Source of the DNA: an uncultured virus (IMG/VR IMGVR_UViG_3300022753_001683)
Taxonomy: Duplodnaviria; Heunggongvirae; Uroviricota; Caudoviricetes
Direction: 5' to 3' (one strand)
Length of the DNA: 64,000 bases
IMG/VR virus record: IMGVR_UViG_3300022753_001683
Part shown: positions 4,818 through 43,281 of the stretch, piece by piece
Position numbering within the stretch: position 1 is the stretch's first letter
How the letters are laid out: each line of letters opens with the position of its first letter
Made by a program: the position numbers and the translations under genes
The notes under the pieces: model-generated
What the model was told of the DNA's origin: nothing
Databases searched by the model: none
The model's input: the letters and a program-made list of their open reading frames with translations, nothing else

Positions 4818-5777
4818 ATGACCGGATTATGGATTTTTGAAATTGCATTACTAGCTCTGATAATCGGTATGCTTTGCTGGTTCCGGTCACGGCACTACGC
4901 AAAGTGGTCTGAATATCAAGAGCTTAAAAAAAAATGTGAGCAAGCTATTAAGGGAAGACAAGAGGCGGAATGCGCAGCGTAGGCAGCGTTATCTGCAGAG
5001 ACGCTCGCTAAGTAGAACTTACAATCAATTAACGAAAATGTAAGACTTGGCAATGAATAGCTTCGCAACAATGAGCAAGCTTTAATAGATCAAGAGCGTA
5101 TTGTAAGAGAAAAAATTGAATATGAACGATCCATATGGTTAAAAAATATGGAAGAAGAGCAGCAAGCAATATTGCTTGAGACCCAAAAGGAGTTTGCAGA
5201 ACAGTTCGCCGCAAGCAATCAACAAAAACTCGCGGCCGCACGACAACTCACCGAACAAGTAATTCAGCTCAAGTCAACTGTTGCCTCTGCTGTCGAAATT
5301 GCAAAACATAAGATGGAAGAAGAATCTGCCGCAGAATTTTATAAATTACAATTGCCGCAAGAAAGTTTAAATGATATTGAAGCACTTCGTTCTATTGAAT
5401 CGCTCTTGCATAATTCAGAAGCGATTAATAAAGTGATTTGGAAGATGTATTATGAAAAACCTTATACAGACTTGATTGGTCGTATTGGACTTACAAGTAC
5501 TGTTTGTGGCATTTATAAAATTACCAATATTGAAAATCAGATGACATATGTTGGTTAGGCTGTAAATATCGCAGACCGTTGGAAACAACATATTAAGCGT
5601 GGTATTGGTGCAGATGCTCCTACATAGAACAAACTTTACCCCGCAATGAAAAAATTTGGTCCAGAAAATTTTACTTTTGAAATTATTGAAAAGTGTTCTC
5701 GTGATAAACTCAATGAGCGAGAAGATTACTGGCAAGAGTTTTATAAAGCAAAAGAATTTGGATACAGTATAAAGTGA
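4818..5777 (+). CDS. GIY-YIG endonuclease with N-terminal membrane anchor and coiled coil; 5 in-frame TAG read as Gln
   Basis: ATG 4818 with SD GAGG; one continuous frame with TAG at 4980, 5013, 5058, 5556, 5625; CGIYKITN...YVG(TAG)AVNIADRWKQH is the GIY-YIG YIGQ motif; stop TGA 5775-5777. Confidence 0.85.
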
Positions 5778-24647: not shown

Positions 24648-24680
24648 GAGGGTGGCGTCCTCTTTTAAAGGAGAAATAAT

Positions 24681-25163
24681 ATGCGATATGCTAACGTAAT
24701 TTGGAATGACATTGTTGCCGGCGACGGTTTATGTGTGTCATTTTATACGCAAGGTTGTCCGCATCGGTGTCCGGGTTGTCATAACCCGGAGACCTGGGAC
24801 TTTGAAGGAGGACAAGAATTCCCCGCATCCCTTTTGGACGACCTAATCCGAGGTCTTACCGCACAAGGTATTCAAAGACCCTTGTGCATCCTAGGCGGTG
24901 AACCGCTTTGTCCCGAGAATATTTTTCTTACTACACTATTAATTCGTACAGTGCGGGACAAGCTACCAGATACGCCTATATATGTGTGGACTGGTTATCT
25001 TTATGAAGATCTTCAAAAGATAGGTTCATCCCCACATTTATCATATATCCTTGATAACATTGACTATTTGATTGATGGCCCATATGATGCGACTAAGAGA
25101 AATATTACTCTTGGTTTGCGTGGTAGCGAGAATCAGAGAGTTTTCAAGTTTGACAGAAAATAA
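24681..25163 (+). CDS. nrdG: Anaerobic RNR activating protein (radical SAM)
   Basis: GCPHRCPGCHN, LGGEPL, IDGPY, LRGSENQR; adjacent to nrdD. Confidence 0.93.
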   Translation: MRYANVIWNDIVAGDGLCVSFYTQGCPHRCPGCHNPETWDFEGGQEFPASLLDDLIRGLTAQGIQRPLCILGGEPLCPENIFLTTLLIRTVRDKLPDTPIYVWTGYLYEDLQKIGSSPHLSYILDNIDYLIDGPYDATKRNITLGLRGSENQRVFKFDRK

Positions 25164-28936: not shown

Positions 28937-29341
28937 TTAACTAGCAGCTGCAAGCTTATTTACTTGTACCTGGGCTTCAATCAAAGTAGTCAAGTACTGA
29001 TCGAAATCTCCAAGGGCACTAGCAAGATACTCTTTAGCATCATCTGTAAGAATGGCTAAAACCGCACTCTTAGTCATTTCAAAAGCTTTCTTCTGTGCCT
29101 CAGGATCAAAAGCATTTTGACCCTTAAGAGCATCTACATATGTTTGAGTTGTGGTTAAAACGCAATCGGTTACAGTCTCCTGTAACATAAGCACATACTT
29201 ATCATGCTTATCATTATCAACACGATTAATCAACTCGTTGCTCTTAGCATTAATAAACTTAATAAAATAAGTGCTCAATACAACCAAGAGCGGAATGATT
29301 ACTAGTTCAAAAATTTGTTGAGCCATTTCCATCCATTCCAT
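28937..29341 (-). CDS. Holin-like protein (LL-H-like)
   Basis: N-terminal TM helix; QTYVDALK...AQKKAF...IEAQV pattern; downstream of the endolysin. Confidence 0.7.
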   Translation of the reverse strand: MEWMEMAQQIFELVIIPLLVVLSTYFIKFINAKSNELINRVDNDKHDKYVLMLQETVTDCVLTTTQTYVDALKGQNAFDPEAQKKAFEMTKSAVLAILTDDAKEYLASALGDFDQYLTTLIEAQVQVNKLAAAS

Positions 29342-29707: not shown

Positions 29708-31678
29708 TTAAGCAACCGCCTTTGCAAGAGCTTCCCAAGTCTTGGGACCGCAAATGCCATCGACCTTAATATTTACTTTCTTCTGGAATGCGCGAACTGC
29801 ATTCACAGTTTTAGTGCCATAGTCACCATCAATACCATCTTTATTTTCGCCATAAGTACCAAGATCATATCCAAGTTTCTTCAAATTAGTTTGAAGAATT
29901 TTTACATAATCATTTTCAGCGCCTTTACGGATTGTTGGATATTTACTGAAATCAAGAGAAGGAGTGATTACGTTTTCATTATCATCATCAGAATCATCCT
30001 TACCTTGCGCAGCTTGAAGCTTTTTAAGAAGTTCTGCATCAACAATACCATCTGCCAAGATGCCATTATCACGTTCAAATTCTTTAACTGCAGTTGCGGT
30101 TTGAGAACCAAACTGACCATCAGCCTTATCTTCAAGTTCATATCCCAAATCCATTAAGATTTCCTGAAGTTCTTCAACATCAGCGCCAGTCATACCTTCT
30201 TTCAAAGGTAGACGCTCGCCAAGATCATAATCAGTCTTTTCGCCATCAAAAACAAGGAATGTATTCATAACATAACCATACTTGCCGTCAAAATAAGTTT
30301 TGCTCCAAGTTTCTTCACGCTCGTAAACATTAACCTTCTGGCCTTTAGGAATGCGAGCAAGAATGGACGCAGAGGTTGATTTGCCAGCACGCAAATTGAG
30401 TCTTCCAGAGACTGTAGTTACTACCGCAGTAGCAATAGGCTTAGGAGCTTCTACTTCTGGTTCTTCTGCTTTATATTCTCCAGATACGTATTTAATACCC
30501 GGAAATTCATACCAATCAGTCCAAGGACGTTTATTTAAATCGGTAATGATAATACCCTTAGCAAACCCATAAGCTTCAACAACTTTACCATTACCAATAT
30601 AATAGCCAACATGACCATCCTTGCGCACAGCAAGCCCAGGCACTTCTGGGATAGTTGCAATCTTACCATATTTTAAACCCTTGCTCTTGGCATAAGTGAA
30701 CATACTATTTGCAGATTTATCAGGGCAGTTATTTCCATATTTACTCTTGAAGGTCTTATCAGTACCAATAGATTCGATAACACCTTCACCGCCATAAGTC
30801 CAATTGTATCCTTTACCAAGTCCCACACAATCAGCAGAAACCATCTTCTTAGAAATGTGAGATTTATATGTAGCAGTACGATCACTACCATAATGAGAAG
30901 GATATTGATTAGTTTTACTCTTTAAAGTAGAAGTTGTACATTTATATACACAAGTGCCATACCAATATGGCTGGCCAACCATTGCTTTCAAAAATTCTAC
31001 AAAATGTAAGTTAGTATATTTTTCATATTGAGACATAACATTCCCTCCTTGGGGTTTACCTTCCGTCGTCCCGACGATAGGTTCGCTCGGTTGGGTTACC
31101 ACTACCTCGCCATAATTCTTGCGAATTTCTGTACCTGGATAGTAGAATGCCAAAATTTCATCATATTTAACACCAATAGAAGCTGCATACTTAGCGCCGG
31201 TTTGACTCATACCAACACCATGTCCATTCTTCTTGCCCTATGAGACGGCATAATCCCACGGGTCTTCTTGGGCGATTAAATATGCTCGCTTTCCGCCCCA
31301 CTTTTCCTCACTTGAGTAGGTGCGGCCGCCGTTCATAGCACTGTAATGTGCATTTGTAACGATCTTGTTATTATAATAAAGAACTTCACCCTTCGTCTCT
31401 TCAACTGCTTGATGTGCTCTTGCATATGAATTAGAGAAGCGTGAAGCGCGGAATGCCTAATCTGTTGAGGATTTGTCGCTAATAGATCCTTTACTCTAAT
31501 AGCGATATAAAGCGAAAGTGCGGGCCGCAACAGCTTGAGCTTTACCTGCTTCAAGAGCAGCATTACCTACTTCTGCGGGAACCACACCTTTTAGATATTC
31601 TTCAATATCAATTTCAATTTCATCTTTACCATAATAGTCAAGATTTTCGGAGCGAGTAAGTTTTACTTTAATTAGCAT
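29708..31678 (-). CDS. Multidomain endolysin (656 aa): SpoIID/LytB domain + NlpC/P60-like peptidase + SH3b + two peptidoglycan-binding domains; 3 in-frame TAG
   Basis: EEYLKGVVPAE...KAQAVAARTFA and GHGVGMSQTGA are SpoIID motifs, joined through TAG 31496, 31457, 31238; ADCVGL...GHVGYYIG; LNLRAG SH3b; DGQFGSQT and DGDYGTKT PG-binding repeats. Confidence 0.88.
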
Positions 31679-31692
31679 GCTTATTCCTCCTT

Positions 31693-31727
31693 AAAAAAAG
31701 AAGAGGGTTGTTTATTACAACCCTCTT
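31693..31727 (-). terminator. Intrinsic terminator closing the radical SAM operon
   Basis: AAGAGGGTTGT/ACAACCCTCTT stem with T-run on the - strand. Confidence 0.8.
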
Positions 31728-31731
31728 TACA

Positions 31732-32046
31732 TTATTCAACAATCTTCTTTAAGCGAAGATTTACTTCACGACGGTCAATTTCTTCATTCATGGTATCAAA
31801 CAAAGTATCAATCTTGAAATTATCAACCACATCGTACAAGAGCTCACCGTTCTTATCAAAAACATGTACAGCCTTAATAGTGATACCAACATAAGACTTA
31901 ATATCTTCGATGGTGTCTGCAAGACTAGCTGCTGTGTTATCAAGGTAGCAGTTAAAATCATTGCCGAGCTCGCCATTTTCAATATGGCTATAATTTACGC
32001 TACGAACGTCATAACGTGTTGCAGAATCGTTGAAACTAATAAACAT
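31732..32046 (-). CDS. Hypothetical protein (104 aa), last gene of the radical SAM operon
   Basis: SD AAGGAG, highly expressed codon bias, stop TAA. Confidence 0.75.
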   Translation of the reverse strand: MFISFNDSATRYDVRSVNYSHIENGELGNDFNCYLDNTAASLADTIEDIKSYVGITIKAVHVFDKNGELLYDVVDNFKIDTLFDTMNEEIDRREVNLRLKKIVE

Positions 32047-32062
32047 GTTTTATTCTCTCCTT

Positions 32063-32743
32063 TTAGTTTGCTGGTGGAGGTGGTGGAGGCGGGGGAGGAT
32101 TACATCCACACTCCTCGGGTTTACTTCCATTCCAATCAGAGTTTTTTGGCCCTTCCTCAGGCTTTACTAAACCAAGCGCAGTTAAATAAGTTTGAGAAAG
32201 GCGAAGAGAAGCAGGACGAGACTGACGCCAAGATCTGAGTTCTTTAACAATGCTAGAAGAAGCTTGCATTAATTCAAGATAACCAGCGCCCATTTGTGCC
32301 AATGTATATGTTGGCGCAAGAGTGTCTTGAATCAAACCAATGCGCTGGGCAATAGTCTGACTACGTTCATCTTCTGGACCATTAGACAATTTAAAGTCTA
32401 AATAGTTACCAAATACAGAGCAATATTGATGAACAATCGCGCACCAGGCACTCATAAAATCATTCCAGGGAAGCTTATCCTCAGTAAGAATAAGAGTTGG
32501 AAATTCATGTTCAATACGAATGAACATGTCTAAAGTGTCCTGAGAAATTGTAAATGCACCATCGTCCTCTCCCGGTTCCCAAGCTGTGATGGCATCAATT
32601 TGCTCCAATACTCTAATCATAATTAATGAAAGTTGCGGCTGAATGGCTGTTAAAATACGACCAATAGGACCCAAAGTATCAATTTCTTTCATCACATGAT
32701 AGCGGGCCTCGCCATAAGAAAAATTACGAATTTCAGTTAACAT
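32063..32743 (-). CDS. Hypothetical helical accessory protein (226 aa) with CGC-polyproline tail
   Basis: Start overlaps the end of the radical SAM gene; ends EECGCNPPPPPPPPPAN. Confidence 0.75.
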   Translation of the reverse strand: MLTEIRNFSYGEARYHVMKEIDTLGPIGRILTAIQPQLSLIMIRVLEQIDAITAWEPGEDDGAFTISQDTLDMFIRIEHEFPTLILTEDKLPWNDFMSAWCAIVHQYCSVFGNYLDFKLSNGPEDERSQTIAQRIGLIQDTLAPTYTLAQMGAGYLELMQASSSIVKELRSWRQSRPASLRLSQTYLTALGLVKPEEGPKNSDWNGSKPEECGCNPPPPPPPPPAN

Positions 32744-34121
32744 TTAACTCCGTTACCTCCTCAAGATATTTGAATTGCACTTTCTTTTCTTCAGACAAAT
32801 CTCTCCAAACTACACTCCACACCCCATGTTCTTGTAGCCATTTCATTTCAGTATAAATCATAGCATGAGCTACTGCACATACAGTAGGAATTGGAGTAAT
32901 TAAATTACGAGTGCATTCATATTGAGCACCAAGACAGGTGCCAGTACATAATTCATTAATAGGACATTGCGCACAATGCGGCAAAGATGCTTTATGCATA
33001 GAATATGTTGAAATTAACAATTCCGGATTGATGCATTCAAATTTCAAAATTTCTTTTTCATCAGGCACCAATTTACCATAATACATATCTTCATATCCTG
33101 TGCGGTGACATGGATACATCATTAAGTCACTTACACGTAATGTAAATTGGCTTTGAATACCGCAGGTAAGACCACGTCCACAAGTTGTTAAAGGCTGACT
33201 AAACATATTAAAACCATTTGCTTTAACTAACCAGCCTGCCATAGCATATGGATCTTTATTAATTTTATTTTCCCATACCCAATCAAGAACAAATCTCATA
33301 AATTTACACAAAGACTGAACTTGATCATAATTCCATTCTTCATTGCGGACATGCAATAAATACAGGCTCTCCCATGGGATATTGTGTTTTTCCATCATTT
33401 CTTGGAACCACAAGAAATTTTGAGGCCATGCATCAATATTTCTACTATATACCATTGGATGCAAGCCACCATGAATCATATGAGAAAATTGAAATGCACG
33501 ATCATAGTACTCGTCATCTCGCACACCACCACCCAAATCCACATCTAGATCATGTAGATAAGGACGATTGTCTTCCATATATTTTCCATCAAAACTCGCA
33601 CTAAGACCTAGAGTAATACCTATACTTTCGAATTTAGCATGAAGTTCTTTTACTCTTGCAGTTGCTTCTTCAGAACACACAAAAGTAAAATTAGTAGGAA
33701 TTACAATTTCAATTGGACGATATAAAGGATCTAAATCCTTAAAATGTTCATAAATAGTTTCTAATACTTTATATCCAACTTCTTGAGCTAATAATTCACC
33801 AGAGAAAATTTCAATGTTAGCGTTCCAATCATTATGAGTGTACCATTGTAAAATAGTTTTTAGATTTTCAATAGTACGCTCTTCGTTGAAACAATCTTCA
33901 CTAAAAATCTTTTTGCGATGACGATGTAAATAACAATATCTACAACCTAAATTGCAACGCGGTGAAATAATTAACTCAATATTTTTCATTTTCTGATCTC
34001 TTGGGGTATCAATAGAGAAATCATCATAAAAATATTTCTCAATTACCCAAGCGCCCAATTCATGATTTTCTTTTTGATATTGAGACAAACCAGTATCATT
34101 TACATTGCAATGCTCGGCCAT
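32733..34121 (-). CDS. Radical SAM/SPASM-domain peptide maturase-like enzyme
   Basis: CNLGCRYC; FSGELL, PTN, SFDG; SPASM cysteines CG...YPCHR...CAQCPINELCTGTC...C. Confidence 0.9.
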   Translation of the reverse strand: MAEHCNVNDTGLSQYQKENHELGAWVIEKYFYDDFSIDTPRDQKMKNIELIISPRCNLGCRYCYLHRHRKKIFSEDCFNEERTIENLKTILQWYTHNDWNANIEIFSGELLAQEVGYKVLETIYEHFKDLDPLYRPIEIVIPTNFTFVCSEEATARVKELHAKFESIGITLGLSASFDGKYMEDNRPYLHDLDVDLGGGVRDDEYYDRAFQFSHMIHGGLHPMVYSRNIDAWPQNFLWFQEMMEKHNIPWESLYLLHVRNEEWNYDQVQSLCKFMRFVLDWVWENKINKDPYAMAGWLVKANGFNMFSQPLTTCGRGLTCGIQSQFTLRVSDLMMYPCHRTGYEDMYYGKLVPDEKEILKFECINPELLISTYSMHKASLPHCAQCPINELCTGTCLGAQYECTRNLITPIPTVCAVAHAMIYTEMKWLQEHGVWSVVWRDLSEEKKVQFKYLEEVTELNVN

Positions 34122-35512
34122 GGTTTCATCGCTCCTCTATTTACTAAAATTTTATAATATCGCATCATTTCTTCCACAGCACCATTGCCTAATAAACGCA
34201 AATAACTGCAAGGTACAATAGAAGGATTAGTTGTATAGTCTTCCTCAACGCCAATATGACAATATAATCCACAAGTCATCATAAACATTAATAAACGATC
34301 ATCTTCATTATATGCATATTTACTGTTGATTTGTCCAGCGCAAGCCATTGTTACAGCCATTTGATCAAAGAAATATTTTCTAGACATAATATCGGCATGG
34401 AAAGACATAGAACCATAAGTGCGTTTCATCCAAACCTTATCATTAGTATTCATATTACATCCACTTTGCATTGCATGCTTAGTCTTCATTTTTTCATCAA
34501 GAGCTGCATTACGACAGAGACGATTACAAGTATAAATATTTCCTTCATGATCAATAGTAATATTATTCTTACTAGCGGAACAAGAATAAGAATTTTCTTG
34601 TGTCGCAATAGGATTGCCAGCTTCTGCTTGGAAAAATACTTCAGGTCCATTAAATAATTGACCAAAAAGAGGGCGACCATCATAGCAAGGTTTATCTTGT
34701 ACATTTACTCTCGGTAAAAAGCTAAGCCATTTTGCAAATGTCTCACCATCTTCTTGAGTATAATAGCCTGGGTCAACCAAAGTTGGGCAACCCGCAATTT
34801 GTAAACTAATATTTTTTTTACCTTCAATTAATTTATCGCATTCAACTTGTAAATCATTGAAGAATTTATAATACCAGTTAAATGAATCAATTCCTCTCTC
34901 ATTCATAATTTTCATATAACTAACATCTAATGTAGCTTTAGTATTAATTACAAGAGAGAAATATTCCATATCTGCAGGACAACGAGTTAAAATTTCTTTC
35001 ATAGTTTTAATTGTGCTCGCAGTCGCTCCAGGATGACGAGAATCATCATTAAATTCAGGTGGACCATCTAAAGACATTTGAAGATTAAAAGTGATTTTAC
35101 GTTTGTGGTGAGTTGCATAAACCATCATTGGCAAGAAAAAATCTTCATAAATGCGATCGCCCAAAAGAGCATTAGTAGAAAACATTACATCTTTAGCATT
35201 TGGATAATAGTCAAATAATGCTTCAAATGTTGCTCGCCAGTACTGACTATTAATTGTAGGTTCTGCGCCCCACAAACTTACATTTTCAATAGCATCACGG
35301 ATGCCTGCGGTGACACGTTTAACATTTTCTACAAAAGTTCCATCTTCAAGTGCTTGACGAATATCTCTATTATAAGAAGCCATGCACTTTTTTTCTTTTT
35401 CAATATAACAATATTTACATGCCATATTGCAATCTGATGACCAGTGTAGGCTGACGCTGGCTATATTAGCCAGCGCTTCGCCTAAATAATCAAGAGAAGG
35501 AATTTGTTTCAT
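34100..35512 (-). CDS. Radical SAM enzyme with Twitch/degenerate SPASM domain
   Basis: CNMACKYC; WGAEPT, STN, SLDGP; CSASKNNITIDHEGNIYTCNR; lacks the CxxC-x5-C-x3-C cluster. Confidence 0.88.
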   Translation of the reverse strand: MKQIPSLDYLGEALANIASVSLHWSSDCNMACKYCYIEKEKKCMASYNRDIRQALEDGTFVENVKRVTAGIRDAIENVSLWGAEPTINSQYWRATFEALFDYYPNAKDVMFSTNALLGDRIYEDFFLPMMVYATHHKRKITFNLQMSLDGPPEFNDDSRHPGATASTIKTMKEILTRCPADMEYFSLVINTKATLDVSYMKIMNERGIDSFNWYYKFFNDLQVECDKLIEGKKNISLQIAGCPTLVDPGYYTQEDGETFAKWLSFLPRVNVQDKPCYDGRPLFGQLFNGPEVFFQAEAGNPIATQENSYSCSASKNNITIDHEGNIYTCNRLCRNAALDEKMKTKHAMQSGCNMNTNDKVWMKRTYGSMSFHADIMSRKYFFDQMAVTMACAGQINSKYAYNEDDRLLMFMMTCGLYCHIGVEEDYTTNPSIVPCSYLRLLGNGAVEEMMRYYKILVNRGAMKPWPSIAM

Positions 35513-35533
35513 ATCTCCGTTTTCTCCTCTCGC

Positions 35534-37027
35534 TTAATTCGAGTAATTTCTTGAATAATAATTACTAGTATAATTACCAGTTTTATTGCCAGAATTATAT
35601 GTAGAATAGTTACCAGACTTATAAGTGGTATGATAACCTGTCTTATAGCTAGTATAATCCGCGGTATCATAACTATGATTGGTGCCATTATGAGAACTCT
35701 TGGCGCCACTGTCATTAGAAGAATAATAACTTCCATGATGGGAGGTATAATCCGCGCTATCATAGCTATAATTACTCGTTTTATAAGTTGTATAATGCGT
35801 TTTTGCGCTTGCATTATAACCACCATGATTACTTGTGTAATCTGCACTATCGTGAGAATATTTTCCACCATAGTGAGTAGTATAATTTGCGCCTTTTGCA
35901 GATGCATTATAAGTAGCAAAATTGCTGCCATTATATCCGGCATAATGAGTGTACTTTCCACTGTTATATCCAGTATAATCTCCACCATTAGCAGATGCGT
36001 AATATGAGCCTTTGTGCGTAGCATAGTTTGTGCTATGATAGGCATAATTACCACCATTGTGGACGGAATAATGTGCATTTGCTGTTGTATAATATCCGCC
36101 AAAATTATTAGTATTATAAGAACTTAAGTGACCAACTTTTTCACTCTAATAATGTGTACTATTATGACCAGATTTATGTGTAATATAATATGTTTCATAA
36201 TGAGCAGTATTTTGCCCAGTATAATGATTAACATAATAAGAAGTTTTTACTGTGGCATTATAATTAGTATAGTTTGCAGTATCATAAGTTACATAATGAG
36301 TAGTATAATATGTGGCATTATTTGAAGTATTGTAGCCTGCATAATGGCTATATTTTTGCGCACCATTATGTGTATCAAATTCAGTACTAAATTGATTACC
36401 AAAATGATCTGGACAATGTGAAGTATTATAAATTTGATAGTGCGTAGTATAATAATTAGTATAATACGCTTTATGGTTACTACTATAATCCGCAGACTTA
36501 TGAAGACGATTGCCCGTATAATAAGTTCCATGGAACTAATAATGAGCACTCTTATACGTTACATAATTTGTTGTATTATGTTCATAATTTCCACCAAAAT
36601 AAGAATAATAATGAGTACCATTATGAGTAGTATAATAATCTGCATAATGATTCGTATAATAACTTGCATTATGACCATATCGATGACTGTTAAAATACTC
36701 AGTATAATAAGAATTATGCCAAGCTGTCCAGTTATTAATATCATATCCGGTATAATAATTTACTAAATGCCCTGTATAATAAGCATCATTATATCCAGAT
36801 TTATGACCTGATTTATAAGATGAAAGATGCCCGTTATAATATGTACCTTTTTCACCATTGTGATGGGTAGCATAATGTCCACTATAATGTGAACTTAAAT
36901 GTCCGCTCAAGTGCCCTGAATAATATGCAGGGCAATGAGCAGCTTCTTGGGCCTAAATTGCAGTTAATGGATTATTTAAGTCAGAAGGAATAATTTTATT
37001 TCCTTTGACTGCTGTTGAAGTCGCCAT
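35534..37027 (-). CDS. Tyr/His/Asn-rich tetrapeptide-repeat protein B (497 aa), putative radical SAM substrate; 3 in-frame TAG
   Basis: SD AAGGAGG, ATG 37027; MATSTAVKGNKIIPSDLNNPLTAI(TAG)AQEAAHCPAY YSGH LSGH LSSH YSGH YATH...; open through TAG 36953, 36536, 36146 to TAA 35534; only the fragment 36536-36910 is in the ORF track. Confidence 0.85.
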
Positions 37028-37049
37028 TGTGGATTATTCCTCCTTTTTA

Positions 37050-38666
37050 TTAAGTTACAGTAACATTATGCGATTTATTACCAGCACGATAAGCGGTATA
37101 ATTAGAAGTATTATAAGTGCCATAATTAGCAGTATAATAACCTGTCTTATAATTACTATGGTTACCACTATTATAACCACTCCAGTGAGAATTACGAGCA
37201 GCATTTTGACCACTATTATAAGAGCTATCATGTCCACTCTTATTACCTGAATAATGACCACTATTATATCCGCTCCAGTGAGAACGCTGTGCAGTTAAAT
37301 TAGAGTTATTATATGTTGCATAGTTACCGCTTAAATGACTTGTATAATAACCACTATTATAACCACTCCAATGATTATTATAAGTGGAATAATTTGAACC
37401 ATTATGACTGGTGTAATGACCACTTAAATGTCCTGTATAATTACCATTATTTTCAGAGCTTCTATGAGAAGTATATACAGTCTTATTATGATTAGTGTAA
37501 TGCGTAGCATAATAACCACTTAAATGCCCTGTATAATCACCTGCATTGTGAGATACATAATGAGCTCTATAACCAGTTTGATATCCCATATTATGACTAG
37601 AATATCGTCCTGTATAATGAGTAGTATAATTATTACTATTATAAGTTGAATAATGATTATTTTTTCCTGTGTATTGAGCAGTATAATTAGAGCTTAAATA
37701 GCCAGAATTGTATCCAGTATAATTAGCTGCATCACGACTAGTGTATTGAGTACCATTATGCCCTGAATAATGCGTTTTTTGTCCTGCTTTATTTGTACTA
37801 TTATAGGTCGAATAATGAGTTGTATAATTAGTAGTTTTTGCTCCACTATTATAGGTGGAATAATGAGAGCTTCTGTGAGCATAATCATATGTTTCAAAAT
37901 GACTATCATAAGCAACAGCACGGTGAGATTTTGCTCCAATATGATAAGTGGTATATTGAGTACCGTAATAGCCAGTATAATGACTATTTTGATTAGTATA
38001 ATGACTATAATAATAATTATTATAATTAGTACTCTTATAAGAACTATCATGTGAACTATAATAACCACTATAATATTCTGCATTATGACTTTCAAATTCT
38101 GCCGCTCTATGATAAAAATGACTTTTTTCAGTAGTATTGCGAGTTGTATAATGAGTTGCATAATAAGTAGCATTTCTACCGCTGTAATGTGGAGCAAAAT
38201 ACGTATTATAATGAGCTTCACGATGAGCAGAATAATAAATACCACATGCTGCCCAGTTATCAAAATATTGCCAATTACTATGATGAGATCCATAGAAATC
38301 GGAATTATGAGTTGTATAATAGCTACTATAATGACTACTCTTATAACTACTTTCTCTGCCGCTATAATATGTTGCATTATATGAAGTATATTGTGTTGCA
38401 TAAACCGTAGATTTATGCGCATTTAAATATCCTGCATTATAAGCGGCACAACCGTAATTGATAGAACCAGCTTGGCTATCAATAACATCCGATAATTCTT
38501 TAGGCGAATTATAATTTAATTTAGAATTATAAACTGCAATAGGATCATGTTGCCAATTATATTTGGCTAAACCCAATTTATCAGTTCTAAAATTATCAAT
38601 TCGATTTCGAACTAATAAATAATCAGAATATGCAGTTTTCTAACCCGTTGAAACTGGTACCGCCAT
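37050..38666 (-). CDS. Tyr/His/Asn-rich tetrapeptide-repeat protein A (538 aa), putative radical SAM substrate; TAG at codon 9
   Basis: SD AAGGAGG, ATG 38666; MAVPVSTG(TAG)KTAYSDYLLVRNRID... continues in frame into the 508-aa ORF 37050-38576. Confidence 0.85.
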
Positions 38667-38695
38667 TCGTTCGCCCTCCTTTATCTCTATAAAAT

Positions 38696-38724
38696 ATTAT
38701 AACAAAAATTTTTATCTATGTCAA
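38696..38724 (-). promoter_or_regulatory. Perfect sigma-A promoter driving the repeat-protein/radical SAM operon
   Basis: Minus strand TTGACA(38724-38719)-17 nt-TATAAT(38701-38696) with TG extension, 30 nt before ATG 38666. Confidence 0.85.
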
Positions 38725-38758
38725 AAAAAAATATGGCCGCAATTAAGCGGCCATATTT
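38723..38758 (-). terminator. Intrinsic terminator after the tail fibre gene; its T-tract runs into the -35 box of the next promoter
   Basis: AAATATGGCCGC/GCGGCCATATTT stem with a long T-run on the - strand. Confidence 0.8.
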
Positions 38759-38946
38759 ACTATAAAATTTTAACATAAAGTTAAAATATATATATTCACA
38801 TTTACCGCAATCACCATGGGTTGCGTGATGTGGGATTTATCGGACAACATTCAAAATTTAATGTCTATGAAGTAATAGATAAATACCACCAAATCTGTTA
38901 AACAGCAATTTTTCAATCAATTGGTGTGTATTTTATATAAAAATTA

Positions 38947-41900
38947 TTAACGAACTTTAATCCAGATTCGTCCATTTACTTCAACATTACCAGTGCCCCA
39001 AGTCTCATAATTAGGGATTTCAGAAACAGTGCCAACAATACGATCAGGATACATCATAATTTCTTCTCTTGTCATTAAACTAACAGTGCCATTCGGACCA
39101 GTACATACTGCTGCACCAAGAGGATAAGAATTTCTATCTTCATAAGTATATGCTAAAGCACGTCCAGCAACCGCCAAAGGAGTTTTACATTCGTTTGTTT
39201 CACCCATAGCAGAACCAAAAGTATCAGATACAATACTTGCCCCAGCCTACAGTCTCTCTGTTGAAATTTTCATTTCTCCAGAAATATCTTCTATTACCAC
39301 TCGGCCTGGCTCAACTGTTTCTGCTTTTCTAAATTCAGCATAGTCATTCCAAACAGCATTATATACTTTAGTACCATAAATAGCTCCAGCAACACCAAGA
39401 CCACCAGATACTTTTAATGCACCAGAAGTAGTATTTGTTGCTGCGGTAGTATTTGTAATAGATACTACACCAGTAAATGTTTTAGTACCAGCAAAAGATT
39501 GTGTGCCGGTAGTTACAACGCCAGCTTGATTTGTTGCAGCATTAGGAACATATAATGTAGCAACGCCAGTGCCAGTAGCAATACTTAATCCACCAGTATA
39601 AGTCGGAGTATGATAATAGTTAGTGTTAGTATTTGGATTTGCTGGCATAGTTACCTTTAAGTCTACTCCAGCGACAGTACCAATAGTACTTGTTTGTCCC
39701 CATGCTAAAGTAGGGCCGCTATTAGTTACCGCTTTCCAAGAAGGAGCGGCAGAAGAGCCACCACTTGTTAAAATCTAACCCGCAGTTCCTGTACCCAAAG
39801 AAGCAAGAGCAGAAGAACTTGATGCATATACTAATCCATATGCTGTCCAAGATGTTTTTCCAGTACCGCCGTGACCGACCCCTAAAGTGCCAGTAATACC
39901 AGGACGTGGGCTCGCCGCAAATACGTTAGCCGCGGTAGTAGAGCCAAGATTAACCAACATGGATGGATTTGAAGTAATTCCAGTACCACCATAAGCTACA
40001 GCAAGAGCATTGGTTAATTGTAAAGTAGGAATGGAGGTTGTACCATAAAATGTTACATCTTTATTATCCATTCCAATTCGCATTGCATTATTAAAAGTTG
40101 CTTCTGTGCTGGTGTTAGTTCCAGAACCAGAGGTTTGAAGCACAAAATAATTTGCATTAGATGATCCAGTTCCTAAAACACCCGCACGCCATTCTGCCCC
40201 ATAATTGGTAGTTTGATGTTCCCAAATAATAAACTTATCAGTATCACCAGTTAAAATACGAATATCGTCATTAAAGGTTTTTGCACCAGCAAATGTTTGC
40301 GCGCCAGTGGTGACAACGCCTCCTTGCGTAGCATTTGCTGCATCAAGCGTAACAGTTCTATTTTTTCCTGCGACAGTAATAGATAAAGTTTCACCATTAG
40401 CTCCTGCAGTAGAACTAAAGTTGCTAAATAGTGAGCTCGCATCACAAGATGTTATTATACCACCGTTTAAATAAACTGGTACACTTGCACTACCAGCTGT
40501 TCCAGTTAATGCTTTAATTTCACCACTAGACATATAGACAGGCTGAGTAGTTGAACCAAGAGTGGAGGATGATGCTGTTAATGTACCAGCATTTAAGAAG
40601 ATTGGTTTTGCGCTTGCACCAACACTGGCGCCAGAAGCCTTAATTATACCATCTTCCATATAAATTGGTTTAGTCGCGCTACCAATATCTGAGGTAGACG
40701 CTGTGATTGTACCACTATTTAAAAATACTGGATTATTAGATGCACCAACAGTAGAGGACGATGCTGTTAATGTACCAGCATTTAGATACATAGGAACAAT
40801 ACCAGATCCAACCGTAGAAGTGGATGCTGTTGCTGCACCATCTGCTGCGATATATACAGGCTTTACTCCAGAACCAATTGCAGTATCATTGGTATGAACT
40901 ACAAACTGATATCCCGTAGTAGATGCTGCGACATTAGGTAAATTAAATACGTTACTATTCGCCGTACCAGAATCAATGCGAACGTCATAATCAGCAGTAG
41001 AAGCATTGGTCTTATGAAAGTCTAAATAACGACCAATTTCACTTACACCAGATCCATTAACAGTAACAAAACCATTGTTAAACCATGCGCCAGATTTTGG
41101 TAAAGTAATAGTAATAGTTTCATCCGCGCCCTTATTGGTATGACCATAAGTATCAACAGTAATCTGCGGAATGGCAAAAGAGGTTGCGGCTCCAGTTAAT
41201 GTTGTAACAGTATTGCCGCTAGTATAACCACTACTTGGTCCCTTCTTAGCATGCTTTGCGTCATAGGTGACTCCGTTAGTTCCAGCAGTACCAGTTAAAA
41301 CAACAATATCATCATCTGTTGCTGTTGCACTAATATTAATCTATACATTCTTTTTAGTGACAGTAATTTTACCATTGGTATCTTGGCTAATAGTATCAAT
41401 AAAAGCGGATGCATTACCTGATGTACCTGGGCTAGACACAGCAGTTTGAAGAACCTTGTAGCTACCTTCATCACCAAGCAATTCCCAGCGACTATTGTAA
41501 CTATTCCAAACATATTCTTTTGTGCCATAAATAACCACATCGCCAGCTAAACGATCATCGGGCCAAGTATATCCAGAAATTTTAGGATCAGTATTACTTT
41601 GATTTGTGATAGCTACGGTAGCAACACCGATATAATGCATTGCATTTGTTAAACCAAGATTAATACGTAGCTGCTCGGCAGTAATTGAACCTCCAAGAGA
41701 AACACTTGTGCCTGCAATATTAACTGAAGAATTAACTAATTTATTATTAGCAATTGATCCCGCTAACATAGCATTGGTAACTTTACCAGTGCCAATAGTA
41801 GTAGTGATGTTCCAATCGGCACTTCCATTAGAAGAGCCTGTGCCACCTACGTCTCCACTTAAAGTAACTGCTCGTGATGCATTAAGTTTAGAAGCAGAAG

Positions 41901-43281
41901 TGGCATTACCACTGAATGTAGTTGCATATACAGTTCCTTGCGCATAAATATTCTTCCATCTAGCAGTATCTGTACCAAGACTATATGTATTATGTGCAGA
42001 AGGATTAATATGTTGAGCAGTGGTAGTTCCACCAATTGTAGCACCACTCGCACCAATTTCTGCCTTTTTAGCAACAATAGTTTCACCAAATGTTGCACCA
42101 CCAGTAACGGTTAATGCTTGTGTAGCATGATTACTACCAATAACTGCTGTTCCAGTACTTGTTAACTTTGCAGAAGCAGTAATATATGGAGCAGAAATAG
42201 TGCCTTCAGAACTAATATTTCCAACCGCTGCAATAGTAGAAGATGCACTTATAGCACCAGTAAAAGAAGATGTTTCAGTTACAGCAAGAGTGCTTTGTAA
42301 TGTGGTTGCGCCAGTTGCTTTTAAAGTTCCATTAGCAACAATATTTTTTAAATTTGCAACGCCAGCTCCACTAACATAATATGTTGTACCACCAAAATAT
42401 AAAGAAGTGCCTGACGCTACAGTTGTTTTATTATTTAAAGCTACTGTATTAGTAAAAGTAGTAGCTCCATTGAAAGCCGCAGTTCCAGAGGCGGTCAAAT
42501 TAGAAGCAATAGCTACAGGAACCGCTGCGATGTTTAATGTATTTGTTGTGTCAGAAAGAGTTTGATAAATAATAAATTGAGAGGCTTTATTATCAAAGAT
42601 ACCTCTTGTTACAGAAGTTGCTTTCATTTGCCATCCATGAGAACTGTTTTTCACATTAACATAAGCATCTCCACTAGAAGTGTTGATTGTTAATGGACCA
42701 GTCATCGTATCGCCATCAATATTCACATATAAATCATCTAAAGCAGCTTCACAGTTTGTTAAAAAATTATTAACTGTTAAAATCGGACTATTATTGTGAT
42801 ATAAATTGCTAGCATCACTTGTATATAAATACAACCCTCCAACTTGAGGATTTGTAGATTCTGCCAAACTTAAAATTGCCTTACCAGCGCTATCTTTAAT
42901 AGCTTGCCCACTACTAAGAGTGACACCAGAAGACAGAACAGGGGAGGACTTAAAAGTCTTCACTCCATAAATTTCTTGAGCAACTAAGCTCAAAACACCA
43001 GAATGGTCTGATGAAGCATATGGCAATTCTCTAATTGCCTCTTGACCACCAACTTCTAATTTAATACAGCTGGCTTTTTCATCGTCGCCATCTGCTTTCA
43101 CAAAAGTGATTACAGGCGCACCTGTTAATAAATCTGCGTACTAAGCATTTAACGGCACTCTCTCTGTGGCAGTATCAATATAAAACTTACCATTATCAGG
43201 AGTAAAATAAGCATAACCTTCAGTTATTTTTTGATTACCTAAGCTTGCCGCAGGACCTTTAAAAATCTTAAAAAGAGCCAA
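38947..43281 (-). CDS. Long tail fibre/spike protein (1444 aa) with C-terminal intramolecular-chaperone-like domain; 4 in-frame TAG
   Basis: TTG 43281 with SD GGAGG; four track ORFs fuse in one frame via TAG 43141, 41341, 39775, 39247; Gly/Thr/Ser/Ala-rich; GRYLDFH...DYDVRI, GTAG(TAG)ILTSGG, VWNDYAE...PLAVAGR. Confidence 0.85.
40450..40885 (-). repeat. About 7 tandem ~21-aa repeats within the tail fibre (GSxxxPVYLNxGxxTASSSTV-like)
   Basis: GSGVKPVYIAADG, GSGIVPMYLNAG, GASNNPVFLNSG, GSATKPIYMEDG, GASAKPIFLNAG, GSTTQPVYMSSG, GSASVPVYLNGG. Confidence 0.8.

What the first reader, a model, noticed from the sequence alone, without database searches (positions are those of the whole stretch)
35534..37027. 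Hidden 497-aa repeat protein visible only with TAG readthrough, with a strong 4-residue register
The standard ORF track shows only a 124-aa fragment plus Ile-rich shadow frames. With three TAGs read through, the frame runs from an AAGGAGG-preceded ATG to a TAA 21 nt before rSAM1. The core parses as YSGH LSGH LSSH YSGH YATH HNGE KGTY YNGH LSSY KSGH KSGY NDAY YTGH..., consensus (Y/N/K)-(S/T)-(G/S/T)-(H/Y/N), with occasional 3-residue slips. This is the same 4-residue spacing as CXXX-repeat radical SAM targets, but with His/Tyr/Asn in place of Cys. The DNA is not a perfect tandem repeat, which points to selection at the protein level. Three longer units recur near the C-terminus (YSHDSADYTS, YSYDSADYTS, HSYDTADYTS).
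Basis: seen in the sequence. Interest (0 to 1): 0.85.

Follow-up and report, generated by a model that had tools for sequence, protein, structure and literature searches.

The report
Phage radical-SAM-linked Tyr/His repeat protein
A gut phage that reads the stop codon TAG as glutamine encodes a real 497-residue protein built from about 115 four-residue Tyr/His-Ser/Thr-Gly units; it sits with a twin beside two radical SAM enzymes, in a gene cassette shared by many uncultured phages, and is probably their substrate.

Summary
On the minus strand (37027 to 35534) a frame runs 497 codons with three TAG, no TAA and no TGA. Shuffles expect 28.7 TAA+TGA; 0 of 2000 had none. TAG means Gln here. The nearest phage record carries a tRNA-CTA, and TAG codons align mostly with Gln in conserved columns.

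The period-4 register is strong: score 345 against 147±10.5 for shuffles, with 10 slips. The consensus is (Y/H/N)(Y/N/K)(T/S)(G/S/T).

Strain variants from four studies gave 38 listed differences in the gene. Thirty are synonymous and 8 are conservative; there are no indels.

The gene is one of two paralogues (497 and 538 aa). They lie directly upstream of two radical SAM enzymes, one with a canonical 7-Cys SPASM domain, and a conserved helical protein. The cassette sits between tail-fibre and lysis genes.

The same cassette occurs in many uncultured phage contigs. It always has a conserved N-terminal leader, a junction Cys (16 of 16; 11 of 12 in a second set) and a hypervariable polar repeat core of 25-490 aa.

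No curated family matches the repeat protein, and six literature searches found no description.

Best reading: a giant RiPP-like substrate protein. The chemistry and the role are untested.

The parts
35534..37027 (-). A497: 497-aa repeat protein gene (precursor 2 of the cassette), read with 3 TAG as Gln, stop TAA
   Evidence: open frame; period 4; 30 syn / 8 nonsyn variants, no indels
37039..37045 (-). Shine-Dalgarno AAGGAGG, 11 nt upstream of the ATG
36935..37027 (-). Leader, codons 1-31 (holds TAG codon 25); matches the leader profile built from phage relatives, E 1e-11 (it was one of the 19 seeds)
36932..36934 (-). Junction Cys32, invariant in 16 of 16 aligned leaders
   Evidence: alignment A3; 11 of 12 in A6
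35537..36931 (-). Core: 465 aa, about 115 units (Y/H/N)(Y/N/K)(T/S)(G/S/T), 10 register slips; a second Cys in an HCP motif near residue 205
36953..36955 (-). In-frame TAG, codon 25
36536..36538 (-). In-frame TAG, codon 164 (context H-Y-TAG; the same H-Y-Q occurs with CAA at codon 198)
36146..36148 (-). In-frame TAG, codon 294 (context H-Y-TAG)
37050..38666 (-). B538: paralogous 538-aa repeat protein (precursor 1). It has an extra ~42-aa N-terminal part, a leader-like segment, Cys73 and the same period-4 core; one TAG at codon 9
   Evidence: BLASTP to A497 E 4e-25, 31 % identity, leaders aligned
34100..35512 (-). rSAM1: 470-aa radical SAM enzyme with the motif CxxxCxxC (C32 and C35 invariant in A1), invariant C311/C329/C418 that could serve an auxiliary cluster, and no TAG
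32733..34121 (-). rSAM2: 462-aa radical SAM enzyme with a canonical 7-Cys SPASM motif (C320, C338, C383, C386, C392, C396, C415 invariant in 23 sequences); overlaps rSAM1 by 22 nt
32063..32743 (-). acc1: 226-aa conserved helical partner protein (C-terminal motif PPxxELSxxYLxxL, poly-Pro tail); overlaps rSAM2 by 11 nt
31732..32046 (-). acc2: 104-aa protein; a sequence relative was found only in L007, so its membership in the cassette is uncertain
38947..43281 (-). Context: 1444-aa tail-fibre-like gene (4 TAG) whose C-terminal domain ends in GRIWIKVR; this domain's gene lies just upstream of the cassette in many relatives
29708..31678 (-). Context: endolysin (SpoIID, SH3_3, PG_binding_1; 3 TAG), followed by a holin at 28937-29341

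Best explanation
A497 is a genuine late gene of a large phage that reads TAG as Gln. The nearest record is 168.7 kb and 88 % complete, and the host is an anaerobic gut bacterium.

A497 is the second of two paralogous, precursor-like proteins. Each has a ~31-residue leader that is conserved across many phages and a conserved junction Cys. A long, natively unstructured core of about 115 four-residue units (Y/H/N)(Y/N/K)(T/S)(G/S/T) follows.

The two proteins are most likely the substrates of the enzyme module encoded immediately downstream. That module is rSAM1, rSAM2 (a full SPASM enzyme) and a conserved helical partner protein.

Inferred mechanism: the leader docks the protein on the enzyme module. 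Radical chemistry is then repeated along the register, one event per 4-residue unit. The most plausible event is a cross-link from the aromatic/His position a to the Ser/Thr position c two residues on, as in triceptide cyclophanes. A separate event may occur at the junction Cys, such as a thioether. This would turn a floppy polar chain into a rigid, cross-linked rod or mesh.

The product is made late, together with tail fibres and lysis proteins, and there is no transporter or peptidase gene in the cassette. It would therefore act outside the cell, either on the virion (a tail-fibre accessory or adhesin) or released at lysis.

SHOWN: the gene is real and under purifying selection; exact period 4; paralogy; conserved leader and Cys; fixed synteny with the rSAM pair and acc1.

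INFERRED: the substrate relation, the chemistry and the biological role.
For: The gene is real. The frame has 0 TAA/TGA where 28.7 are expected. All six cassette genes have SD sequences.

TAG is read as Gln. The nearest record (100 % identical over window 31700-38700) has 33 tRNAs including one with anticodon CTA. Residues opposite TAG codons in five protein alignments are Q in 38 of 168 cases; the next is E with 15, and S has 8. These include the invariant Q145 column of rSAM1. The motif H-Y-Q occurs twice with TAG and once with CAA.

Selection. Contigs from 4 runs in 4 studies were laid on the region. Of the 38 listed differences inside A497, 30 are synonymous third-position changes. The other 8 are conservative (K>R, T>S, Y>H twice, S>A, N>D, T>A, Y>F). 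None hits a TAG and there are no indels; the binomial P is 1.8e-8 against the 34 % expected for transitions.

Cassette. The rSAM1 family has 73 protein clusters. I scanned 97 loci (96 fetched plus the window). Of these, 49 hold at least one protein matching the leader profile at E<=1e-3, giving 63 distinct proteins. Their cores are 25-490 aa long, and the best periods are mostly 4, 8 or 12. Forty loci hold rSAM1, rSAM2 and a leader protein together. rSAM2 follows rSAM1 in essentially every locus that is long enough. acc1 has 28 distinct homologues.

Short relatives look like classical RiPP precursors: 63-112 aa in L008, L009, L032 and L083.

A distant branch adds a YcaO gene (E 1e-35 to 1e-40). 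Another branch fuses a Hint autoprocessing module directly behind the core.

rSAM2 has the canonical 7-Cys SPASM pattern. The best NCBIfam hits for both enzymes are peptide maturases: PapB, YhhB, HxsB and the SCIFF maturase.

Precedents. rSAM enzymes mature a repeat-bearing protein in HXS (PMC13128918, sections 9-10 read). TvgB modifies each TVGG unit (PMC9062424, passages). Triceptide synthases act on HTK, HAA and HNR motifs (PMC11499958, passages). CrpC cross-links a large protein (PMC13692751, abstract).
Against: No modification has been observed.

All hits of the two enzymes to named maturase families are far below the family cut-offs: best 49 bits against 340. This gives no guide to the chemistry.

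Positions a and b are aliphatic or acidic in some relatives, for example NLSGVLTT in L035 and the Asp-rich cores of L042 and L062. An aromatic cyclophane therefore cannot be the universal reaction.

Neither enzyme has room for an N-terminal RRE domain: the CxxxCxxC motif starts near residues 28 and 56.

A conserved N-terminus with a hypervariable C-terminus is also the architecture of ordinary phage receptor-binding proteins.

The 19 seed sequences are among the 49 loci with profile hits, and many loci are the same phage sampled twice.

Only 40 of 123 variant rows were printed.
Confidence: 0.6

Rival explanations
1. An unmodified low-complexity structural protein. A497 and B538 are ordinary tail-fibre, spacer or decoration proteins. 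Their conserved N-terminus anchors them to the virion and their polar repeats form a flexible stalk. The neighbouring radical SAM pair acts on something else.
For: The cassette sits inside tail-fibre modules. By an automatic rule, the gene with the GRIWIKV-type fibre C-domain ends less than 800 nt upstream of the first profile-detected precursor in 10 of 26 non-redundant loci. By eye it is also next to precursor 1 in the window, L007, L023 and L024, and one small ORF away in L008. A conserved N-terminus with a variable C-terminus is typical of receptor-binding proteins. AlphaFold2 gives no fold.
Against: Relatives as short as 63-112 aa have the same leader and Cys. That is too short for a stalk but typical of RiPP precursors. 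The leader and Cys are more conserved than anything in the core. No locus scanned showed leader proteins without the rSAM pair, although loci were fetched through rSAM1, so this is biased. YcaO and Hint modules are attached in side branches. No other candidate substrate lies in the cassette.
Confidence: 0.15
2. A phage-borne counterpart of the bacterial HXS system. The rSAM-matured His/Tyr repeat protein would be an effector that blocks the DNA entry of competing phages (superinfection exclusion), or otherwise acts in phage-phage or phage-host conflict, and is not a virion part.
For: The architecture matches. HXS has two adjacent rSAM enzymes, a small partner and a repeat-bearing protein effector whose His-X-Ser repeats are each essential (PMC13128918, abstract and sections 9-10). 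The related loci L017 and L066 carry a true His-X-Ser repeat protein a few kb upstream of a distant homologue of the rSAM pair. rSAM2 gives a weak hit to HxsB, E 4.8e-6.
Against: The HxsB score is 25.6 bits against a cut-off of 370. There is no HxsC hit at E<=1 among the 25 best families shown for each enzyme (30 matched rSAM2) and no HxsD hit. A497 has no signal peptide or peptidoglycan-binding domain. The repeats have period 4, not 3, and number about 115, not 5. The substrate genes carry TAG codons and lie among late genes, which fits poorly with exclusion early in infection. PADLOC gives only weak viperin-core hits.
Confidence: 0.12
3. A polyprotein for many small products. The core would be modified unit by unit and then cut into many small cross-linked peptides, as was proposed for TvgA. 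These would be released at lysis as antibacterial or signalling molecules.
For: The repeat-unit logic is that of TvgA/TvgB, where multiple small products were proposed (PMC9062424, discussion passage). Core length varies 20-fold between relatives with no change in the leader. This is easy to understand if copy number only sets the yield.
Against: There is no peptidase or transporter gene in the cassette. The units are not identical, and lysines or other cleavage marks are not in register. The non-synonymous variants tolerated are conservative, so individual positions matter.
Confidence: 0.08
4. Not a gene. The TAGs would be true stops, and the frame would be a decayed or chance-open low-complexity stretch.
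For: No database family or homologue was found by whole-protein searches: 0 Pfam, PHROG, NCBIfam or PADLOC families, and 1 weak hit among 1.84 billion representatives.
Against: No TAA/TGA in 497 codons (0 of 2000 shuffles). Variants are 30 synonymous and 8 conservative non-synonymous, with no indels. The nearest record has a suppressor tRNA. TAG aligns with Gln in conserved genes. Related recoded phages keep orthologous open frames: L007, L023 and L024, with 2-8 TAG each and no TAA/TGA.
Confidence: 0.01

Closest known systems
HXS antiphage system (HxsA effector, HxsB and HxsC radical SAM enzymes, HxsD partner)
   Same: Two adjacent radical SAM genes, a small non-enzymatic partner, and a protein substrate (not a small peptide) with short-period His/Ser-rich repeats whose maturation needs the enzymes (PMC13128918).
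   Different: HXS is bacterial (99.7 % Pseudomonadota by that paper), not phage-borne. It has period 3 and five repeats, against period 4 and about 115. HxsA has a peptidoglycan-binding domain and is exported. The window's enzymes do not reach the HxsB cut-off, show no HxsC hit among the families listed, and acc1 does not match HxsD.
Triceptides / three-residue cyclophane-forming rSAM-SPASM enzymes (YhhB, HaaB, HtkB, XyeB, OscB/GrrM, FxsB)
   Same: An rSAM/SPASM enzyme acts repeatedly on short aromatic-X-X motifs, including His and Tyr motifs (HTK, HAA, HNR; PMC11499958). In A497, register positions a-b-c read (Y/H)-x-(T/S).
   Different: The maturase scores are 13-30 bits against cut-offs of 310-450. 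Known precursors are short peptides. Some relatives of A497 have non-aromatic residues at position a. The chemistry is untested.
TvgA/TvgB poly-cyclopropylglycine system
   Same: A four-residue repeat unit (TVGG, two small residues per unit) is modified once per unit by an rSAM/SPASM enzyme (PMC9062424). The only solved-structure sequence match of rSAM2 is 8vpo (E 7.8e-5, rSAM core only). That code occurs in the cyclopropyl synthase paper PMC10878394 (search listing only).
   Different: A497 has no Val in register. The Tvg cluster has an oxygenase, a peptidase and a transporter, none of which is present here. Tvg is bacterial.
CXXX-repeat radical SAM target family (maturase model TIGR04115; the description of the target is recalled)
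   Same: The same 4-residue spacing of the repeated residue; an rSAM/SPASM maturase is encoded next to it.
   Different: A497 has only 2 Cys, neither in register. TIGR04115 scores 25.6 bits against 350.
CrpA/CrpC protein thioether system of methanogens; PapB ranthipeptide maturases
   Same: A SPASM enzyme works on a large protein substrate and engages it through N-terminal parts (PMC13692751, abstract and section titles). PapB is the best-scoring NCBIfam model for both window enzymes.
   Different: Those substrates are Cys-rich. A497 has one conserved Cys at the leader-core junction. The PapB scores are 48-49 bits against 340.
TAG-to-Gln (code 15) recoded gut phages
   Same: In-frame TAG in late genes, a phage suppressor tRNA, and TAG aligned with Gln. 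The phenomenon is described in bioRxiv 10.1101/2021.08.26.457843 and PMC9523058 (listings and abstract starts seen).
   Different: Nothing about the code itself differs. The suppressor tRNA here is unusual: 91 nt with a long variable arm.

Membership tests
TAG->Gln recoded phage (genetic code 15) | In-frame TAG inside conserved genes that are otherwise open | tested here: met
   Tail fibre 4, endolysin 3, A497 3, B538 1 TAG, all ending in TAA; the replication genes are mostly free of TAG
TAG->Gln recoded phage (genetic code 15) | Phage-encoded suppressor tRNA with anticodon CTA | tested here: met
   Not in the window or in the 112.8-kb record. Present in the nearest record G001, which is 100 % identical over the cassette
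TAG->Gln recoded phage (genetic code 15) | TAG positions align with Gln in homologues | tested here: met
   Q in 38 of 168 aligned residues, the commonest; it dominates in conserved columns such as QLSLD and AGQI of rSAM1
Radical SAM / SPASM peptide-modifying enzymes (the neighbours, rSAM1 and rSAM2) | CxxxCxxC cluster motif and a match to PF04055 | tested here: met
   rSAM1 scores 32.4 bits against a cut-off of 29.5. rSAM2 scores 24.9 bits, below the cut-off, but C56/C60/C63 are invariant in 23 sequences
Radical SAM / SPASM peptide-modifying enzymes (the neighbours, rSAM1 and rSAM2) | Seven-Cys SPASM motif (C..G....C / CxxCxxxxxCxxxC / C) | tested here: met
   rSAM2: C320, C338, C383, C386, C392, C396 and C415 are invariant. 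rSAM1 has only C311, C329 and C418 invariant, so a partial or twitch-like set is inferred
RiPP-like precursor (leader plus core next to its maturase) | N-terminal region more conserved than the core across relatives, and encoded beside the maturase | tested here: met
   The leader profile hits 63 distinct proteins in 49 of 97 loci. Cores are 25-490 aa with differing composition. The junction Cys is present in 16 of 16 sequences
RiPP-like precursor (leader plus core next to its maturase) | Post-translational modification of the core by the neighbouring enzyme | not testable with these tools
   Needs mass spectrometry after co-expression
CXXX-repeat rSAM target system | Cys at every fourth residue of the target | tested here: not met
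   A497 has 2 Cys (residues 32 and about 205), neither in register
CXXX-repeat rSAM target system | Maturase reaches the TIGR04115 cut-off | tested here: not met
   25.6 bits against 350
HXS system | HxsB and HxsC equivalog matches; HxsD partner | tested here: not met
   HxsB scores 25.6 bits against 370 for rSAM2 only. No HxsC among the families listed (25 of rSAM2's 30 are shown). acc1 and 21 relatives give no HxsD hit at E<=1
HXS system | His-Xaa-Ser period-3 repeats and a peptidoglycan-binding domain in the effector | tested here: not met
   Period 4; no Pfam domain in A497
Triceptides (3-CyFE) | Aromatic1-X2-X3 motifs in the core | tested here: met
   Position a is Y or H in 64 % of units, and position c is T/S/A/G in 78 %. 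This is a sequence pattern only
Triceptides (3-CyFE) | Maturase belongs to a known cyclophane synthase family | tested here: not met
   YhhB 24-30 bits against 445, XyeB 13-15 against 450, GrrM/OscB 16 against 310, FxsB 15-18 against 370, AmcB 23 against 425
Triceptides (3-CyFE) | Aromatic-to-C-beta cross-link | not testable with these tools
   Needs MS and NMR

The most novel reading that the evidence does not exclude
Phages build part of their infection apparatus by RiPP chemistry. On this reading, A497 and B538 are stitched by the two radical SAM enzymes into a rigid, cross-linked Tyr/His polymer of about a hundred small rings in a row. The polymer rides on or beside the tail fibres as a fibre, adhesive or wall-penetrating element. 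It would be the first virion component matured by radical SAM enzymes and the largest RiPP-like product known. The hypervariable cores of relatives (Tyr/His, Asp/Ser, Cys-every-fifth, His-X-Ser, some with YcaO or Hint modules) would be a diversification system for host recognition.
Probability: 0.25. Interest if true: 0.92.

Novelty: new variant of a known kind. Interest (0 to 1): 0.8.

Why it matters
Radical SAM/SPASM enzymes that work along repeat motifs are known from bacteria. Their substrates are almost always peptides of tens of residues.

Here the same logic appears in viruses, on substrates of about 500 residues, in a conserved four-gene module lodged among tail-fibre and lysis genes of many uncultured phages. 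Some of those phages read TAG as Gln, so standard gene callers shred the substrate genes.

If the proteins are modified, three things follow. A new enzyme clade with unknown chemistry on Tyr/His/Ser/Thr units would be opened. Phages could be shown to use RiPP-type maturation for their own late functions. It would also explain a class of 'hypothetical' low-complexity genes next to tail fibres.

The link to the recently described HXS defence system, in which an rSAM-matured repeat effector blocks phage DNA entry, suggests that both sides of the phage-host conflict may use related machinery.

The cassette was not found in 50,697 GenBank phage records. The first experimental system will therefore have to be heterologous.

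Tried and rejected
Family and homology searches for A497.
- Pfam, PHROGs, NCBIfam and PADLOC gave 0 families.
- Ten other precursors gave only chance hits in Pfam and NCBIfam.
- An exhaustive HMMER search of 1.84 billion representatives gave 1 hit, E 7.6e-4, which I did not follow up. Composition correction and the fragmentation of recoded genes in databases probably hide relatives.

GenBank phage records (INPHARED).
- No DNA match for window 32000-39000.
- No tblastn match for A497, rSAM1, rSAM2 or the L032 rSAM2.

Structure and binding.
- AlphaFold2 of A497, single sequence: pLDDT 32.7, no secondary structure. This is uninformative about a solenoid or fibre.
- The job with table-11 homologues of locus L032 (rSAM1, rSAM2 and the 77-aa precursor) gave 'no answer', score 0.00.

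acc1.
- The Atlas gave no usable feature hit.
- The AlphaFold2 model was good (pLDDT 87). Foldseek against the PDB gave nothing at E<=0.001.
- VIA-align wide gave a best Z of 8.9, among generic helical bundles and below the level that is meaningful for helical proteins.
- acc1 and its relatives gave no HxsD hit.

Solved structures by sequence: none for rSAM1, and only 8vpo for rSAM2 at E 7.8e-5.

TAG read as Ser.
- I considered this because the suppressor tRNA is 91 nt with a long variable arm and G73.
- Both core TAGs also fall at register position c, where Ser/Thr dominate.
- I rejected it because TAG aligns with Gln in conserved columns; Ser appears in only 8 of 168 cases.
- H-Y-Q also occurs with a CAA codon, and the tRNA's other arms are most like tRNA-Gln(CTG) at 68 %.

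Apparent natural fusions.
- Three fusions appeared under TAG=Q: leader-core to rSAM1 (L047, L040), fibre to precursor (L088, L055) and precursor to precursor (L061).
- I rejected them because each junction holds a TAG in a phage that shows little other sign of recoding.

Expression: no RNA holder was listed for the stretch.

Tools that were not available.
- The search of earlier findings was not open.
- No whole genome is held for the window.

Literature.
- Six searches for a description of phage radical SAM / SPASM / RiPP / YcaO cassettes found none.
- PMC11118758 has no occurrence of 'phage-encoded' or 'viral RiPP'; the passages I read do not treat such a cassette.
Full report
WHAT IS THERE

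The finding's coordinates are exact, but the gene lies on the minus strand. It runs from ATG 37027 to TAA 35536-35534. AAGGAGG lies 11 nt upstream of the ATG, and the stop lies 21 nt before the start of the next gene.

Table 11 breaks the frame at three TAG codons (codons 25, 164 and 294). Read with TAG as a residue, the frame is one 497-aa ORF.

The frame holds no TAA or TGA in 497 codons. Base shuffles expect 28.7, and none of 2000 shuffles was free of them. The other five frames carry 7 to 95.

IS TAG REALLY READ, AND AS WHAT?

The window is a phage. One arm holds a replication module: topoisomerase II, ligase, DnaB, primase, RecJ, a Dda-like helicase, a 1286-aa polymerase and anaerobic NrdD/NrdG. 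The other arm holds tail, tail-fibre and lysis genes.

In-frame TAGs are concentrated in the late arm: fibre 4, endolysin 3, two tail proteins 4 and 6.

The window and the 112.8-kb IMG/VR record hold no tRNA. The nearest virus record is 168.7 kb and 88 % complete by CheckV. It is 100 % identical over window 31700-38700. It carries 33 tRNA genes by ARAGORN, one with anticodon CTA.

I aligned five proteins of this phage and of related recoded phages (L007, L008, L020 and others). The residues opposite TAG are Gln in 38 of 168 cases, followed by Glu 15, Asn 14, Leu 14 and Ser 8. Gln dominates in conserved columns, for example the invariant Q145 of rSAM1. In A497 the motif H-Y-Q occurs twice with TAG and once with CAA.

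So TAG=Gln is justified. TAG=Ser, which the odd class-II-like shape of the suppressor tRNA suggested, is not supported.

THE REPEAT

The composition is Y 92, T 63, S 58, N 58, H 47 and G 46 of 497 residues.

- Autocorrelation of the Y/H/N/K class gives z = +11.1 at lag 4 and -11.7 at lag 2, against 1000 shuffles. The paralogue gives +8.2 and -8.8.
- A register-tracking parse of the 465-residue core scores 345, against 147±10.5 for shuffles, with only 10 slips.
- Position a is Y/H/N in 82 % of units and b is Y/N/K/H in 82 %. Position c is T/S/G/A in 78 % and d is G/S/T/A in 89 %.
- TRF sees only short, weak period-12/15/24 arrays.

SELECTION

Contigs of four public runs from four studies (animal faeces or gut, by record) were laid on 35400-38700.

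- One contig spans the whole stretch with 62 differences and no gap. Another covers 35400-38013 with 57 differences and no gap. No insertion or deletion was reported.
- The tool printed 40 of 123 difference rows, and 38 of these lie in A497.
- Thirty are synonymous third-position changes. Eight are non-synonymous and all conservative: K>R, T>S, Y>H twice, S>A, N>D, T>A and Y>F. None touches a TAG.
- Random transitions would be synonymous 34 % of the time; the binomial P is 1.8e-8.

The frame is translated and under purifying selection. The caveat is that the 83 unprinted rows could not be classified.

THE NEIGHBOURHOOD

Reading the minus strand, the order is:

- a 1444-aa tail-fibre-like gene;
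- B538, a 538-aa paralogue of A497 (BLASTP E 4e-25, 31 % identity, with the leader of A497 aligned to residues 43-73 of B538);
- A497;
- rSAM1 (470 aa);
- rSAM2 (462 aa, overlapping rSAM1 by 22 nt);
- acc1 (226 aa, overlapping rSAM2 by 11 nt);
- acc2 (104 aa);
- endolysin, a 117-aa protein and a holin.

All six cassette genes have Shine-Dalgarno sequences.

rSAM1 reaches the Pfam Radical_SAM cut-off. rSAM2 is just under it, but it has the three cluster cysteines and a textbook seven-Cys SPASM pattern, invariant in 23 sequences.

The two enzymes are barely alike (E 2e-4 over 51 residues). Their best NCBIfam hits are peptide maturases: PapB at 48-49 bits, YhhB, HxsB and the SCIFF maturase. All are far below the family cut-offs.

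THE CASSETTE IS WIDESPREAD IN UNCULTURED PHAGES

rSAM1 has 73 relatives at E<=0.001 in the 5.8-billion-protein collection, many on contigs of 100-275 kb. Using an alignment of 28 of them, I fetched 18 loci from IMG/VR, 76 from metagenome contigs and 80 from genome contigs.

I scanned L007-L102 plus the window, 97 loci in all. The 76 weaker genome-contig loci L103-L178 were left out.

- A profile built from 19 N-termini finds a leader in 63 distinct proteins in 49 of the 97 loci. The seeds are included, and several loci are the same phage sampled twice.
- Forty loci hold rSAM1, rSAM2 and a leader protein together.
- rSAM2 follows rSAM1 wherever the contig goes on.
- acc1 has 28 distinct homologues. 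acc2 has only one, in L007.

The leader reads roughly M-A-F-x-W-...-G-x-x-I-...-L-x-E-(I/L)-R-x-N-x-D-...-N-x-x-C. The Cys is invariant in 16 of 16 sequences in one alignment and in 11 of 12 in another. Precursor 1 usually carries two leader copies.

Behind the Cys the cores differ wildly. They are 25 to 490 residues long. The types seen are:

- Tyr/His/Ser/Thr, as in the window (L007, L023, L024);
- Asp/Ser/Gly/Tyr (L042 and L062, 425-534 aa);
- NLSGVLTT (L035);
- short and Cys-rich (L009, L027).

Distant branches with another N-terminus have Cys-every-fifth (TCSNG), WSQGVGS, NSYGDSNAR or true His-X-Ser repeats. The best S/T/G period is 4, 8 or 12 in most cores. Period 4 is therefore a property of the family, not only of this gene.

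Side branches add hallmarks of peptide natural-product pathways. L020 and L021 have a YcaO gene (E 1e-35 and 1e-40). L074 and L076 fuse a Hint autoprocessing module directly behind a short core (sub-threshold Pfam hits to three Hint models at the same place).

The cassette sits in tail-fibre modules. A gene with the same fibre C-terminal domain ends less than 800 nt upstream of the first profile-detected precursor in 10 of 26 non-redundant loci. By eye it is also next to precursor 1 in the window, L007, L023 and L024.

Only four genome-contig loci (L099-L102) match over most of rSAM1. L099 and L100 are Clostridia MAG contigs, L101 a Saccharibacteria MAG contig and L102 an unclassified bacterium. 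No GenBank phage record matches.

WHAT IT MOST LIKELY IS

The features are a conserved leader and Cys, a hypervariable core, a fixed position beside two radical SAM genes and a partner protein, short relatives of 63-112 aa, and YcaO and Hint add-ons. Together these are the signature of a ribosomal precursor and its maturases. Here the substrates have grown to protein size.

I therefore read A497 and B538 as substrates of rSAM1, rSAM2 and acc1 (confidence about 0.6).

The chemistry is open. The register (Y/H)-x-(T/S)-small fits the aromatic-X-X motif of triceptide cyclophanes. Those include His and Tyr motifs (PMC11499958, passages). One event per four-residue unit has a precedent in TvgB on TVGG (PMC9062424, passages).

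However, relatives with Val, Leu or Asp at position a show that no single aromatic reaction can serve the whole family. The Cys, the one nearly constant core residue, may be the site of a second reaction; thioethers are the commonest SPASM product.

Work on protein-sized substrates has precedents in HxsA (PMC13128918, sections 9 and 10 read) and CrpA (PMC13692751, abstract).

In the window the enzymes carry no TAG while both substrates do. The enzymes could therefore be made before the substrates, once the suppressor tRNA acts. This is an inference, and it does not hold in L007 or L008, whose enzymes also carry TAG.

ROLE

There is no transporter or peptidase gene. Expression is late and the cassette is embedded among tail fibres. 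This points to action outside the cell, either on the virion or on release at lysis.

I cannot decide between a fibre-associated structural or adhesive element, an HXS-like conflict effector and a polyprotein for small products. These are listed as rivals, each with a test.

WHAT GAVE NOTHING

These steps gave no usable result:

- AlphaFold2 of A497 (pLDDT 32.7);
- the complex prediction (no answer);
- fold searches with the good acc1 model (pLDDT 87);
- the exhaustive protein search;
- the search for RNA runs.

NOVELTY

Six full-text searches found no description of phage radical SAM / SPASM / RiPP / YcaO cassettes of this kind. No curated family covers the precursors or acc1.

The kind is known: repeat-motif substrates of rSAM/SPASM enzymes. 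This variant differs from every described member in being phage-borne, with two enzymes, substrates of about 500 residues and a Tyr/His period-4 core.

Noticed in passing
L209:8137-8227 (record G001, minus strand): The suppressor tRNA (anticodon CTA) is 91 nt long with a long variable arm, an A1-C72 mismatch and G73. Its acceptor, D and anticodon arms are most like the phage's own tRNA-Gln(CTG), at 68 % identity. It looks like a tRNA-Gln that acquired a class-II-type extra arm. How it keeps Gln identity is unexplained.
   Followed up: partly
L009:8293-10110 (also L010-L012): rSAM2 of this standard-code relative is 605 aa. A Hint/intein-like insert (three Pfam Hint/intein models, sub-threshold, residues 41-140) sits right inside the CxxxCxxC cluster motif.
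   Followed up: partly
L074:303-1163; L076:69-929: A precursor with a leader, a ~50-aa Tyr/His/Cys core and then a C-terminal Hint module that begins with Cys. This is a true fusion with no TAG. A Hint domain could cleave the modified core or hand it on as a thioester. Similar C-terminal sequence follows the core in L061 and L088.
   Followed up: partly
L020:4030-5910; L021:4383-6173 (also L080): A YcaO gene (E 1e-35 and 1e-40) lies directly upstream of a 257-337-aa Cys/His-rich repeat protein and a distant homologue of the same rSAM pair, in phage contigs of 130-190 kb.
   Followed up: partly
L017:4098-4838 (= L066:3098-3838): A 246-aa protein has true His-X-Ser runs at both ends (HSSHSSHSDHSSH...). 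It lies about 2 kb upstream of a distant homologue of the rSAM pair in a ~159-235-kb phage contig. This is reminiscent of HxsA of the bacterial HXS defence system.
   Followed up: no
L101:5270-6010; L044:1914-2390: Two relatives, one binned in a Saccharibacteria MAG and one on an unassigned metagenome contig, have precursors with a quite different N-terminus (MKxKKxPQIKKxIxSFLNSEEGKITK, then a hydrophobic stretch). From memory it resembles the leaders of GG-type rSAM peptide families, and it is followed by Asp/Ser/Gly/Tyr/Cys cores.
   Followed up: no
window 32063-32150 (minus strand, C-terminus of acc1): acc1 of the window ends in ...CGCNPPPPPPPPPAN, a run of nine prolines that is absent from the 21 aligned relatives.
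   Followed up: no
window 46484-53797 (minus strand): A 2437-aa ORF without any TAG lies among recoded late genes. It matches only PHROGs of unknown function and is probably a giant fibre or tail protein.
   Followed up: no
window 4818-5777 (plus strand): A GIY-YIG homing-endonuclease-like gene with five in-frame TAG codons sits in the otherwise almost TAG-free replication arm.
   Followed up: no
window 32733-35512 versus 35534-38666: Both rSAM genes of the window are free of TAG, while both substrate genes carry TAG. In L007 and L008 the enzymes carry TAG too, so the pattern is not general.
   Followed up: partly
window 22446-25163 (plus strand): Anaerobic ribonucleotide reductase NrdD and its activase are present. 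This fits a strictly anaerobic host, in which oxygen-sensitive radical SAM enzymes can work.
   Followed up: no
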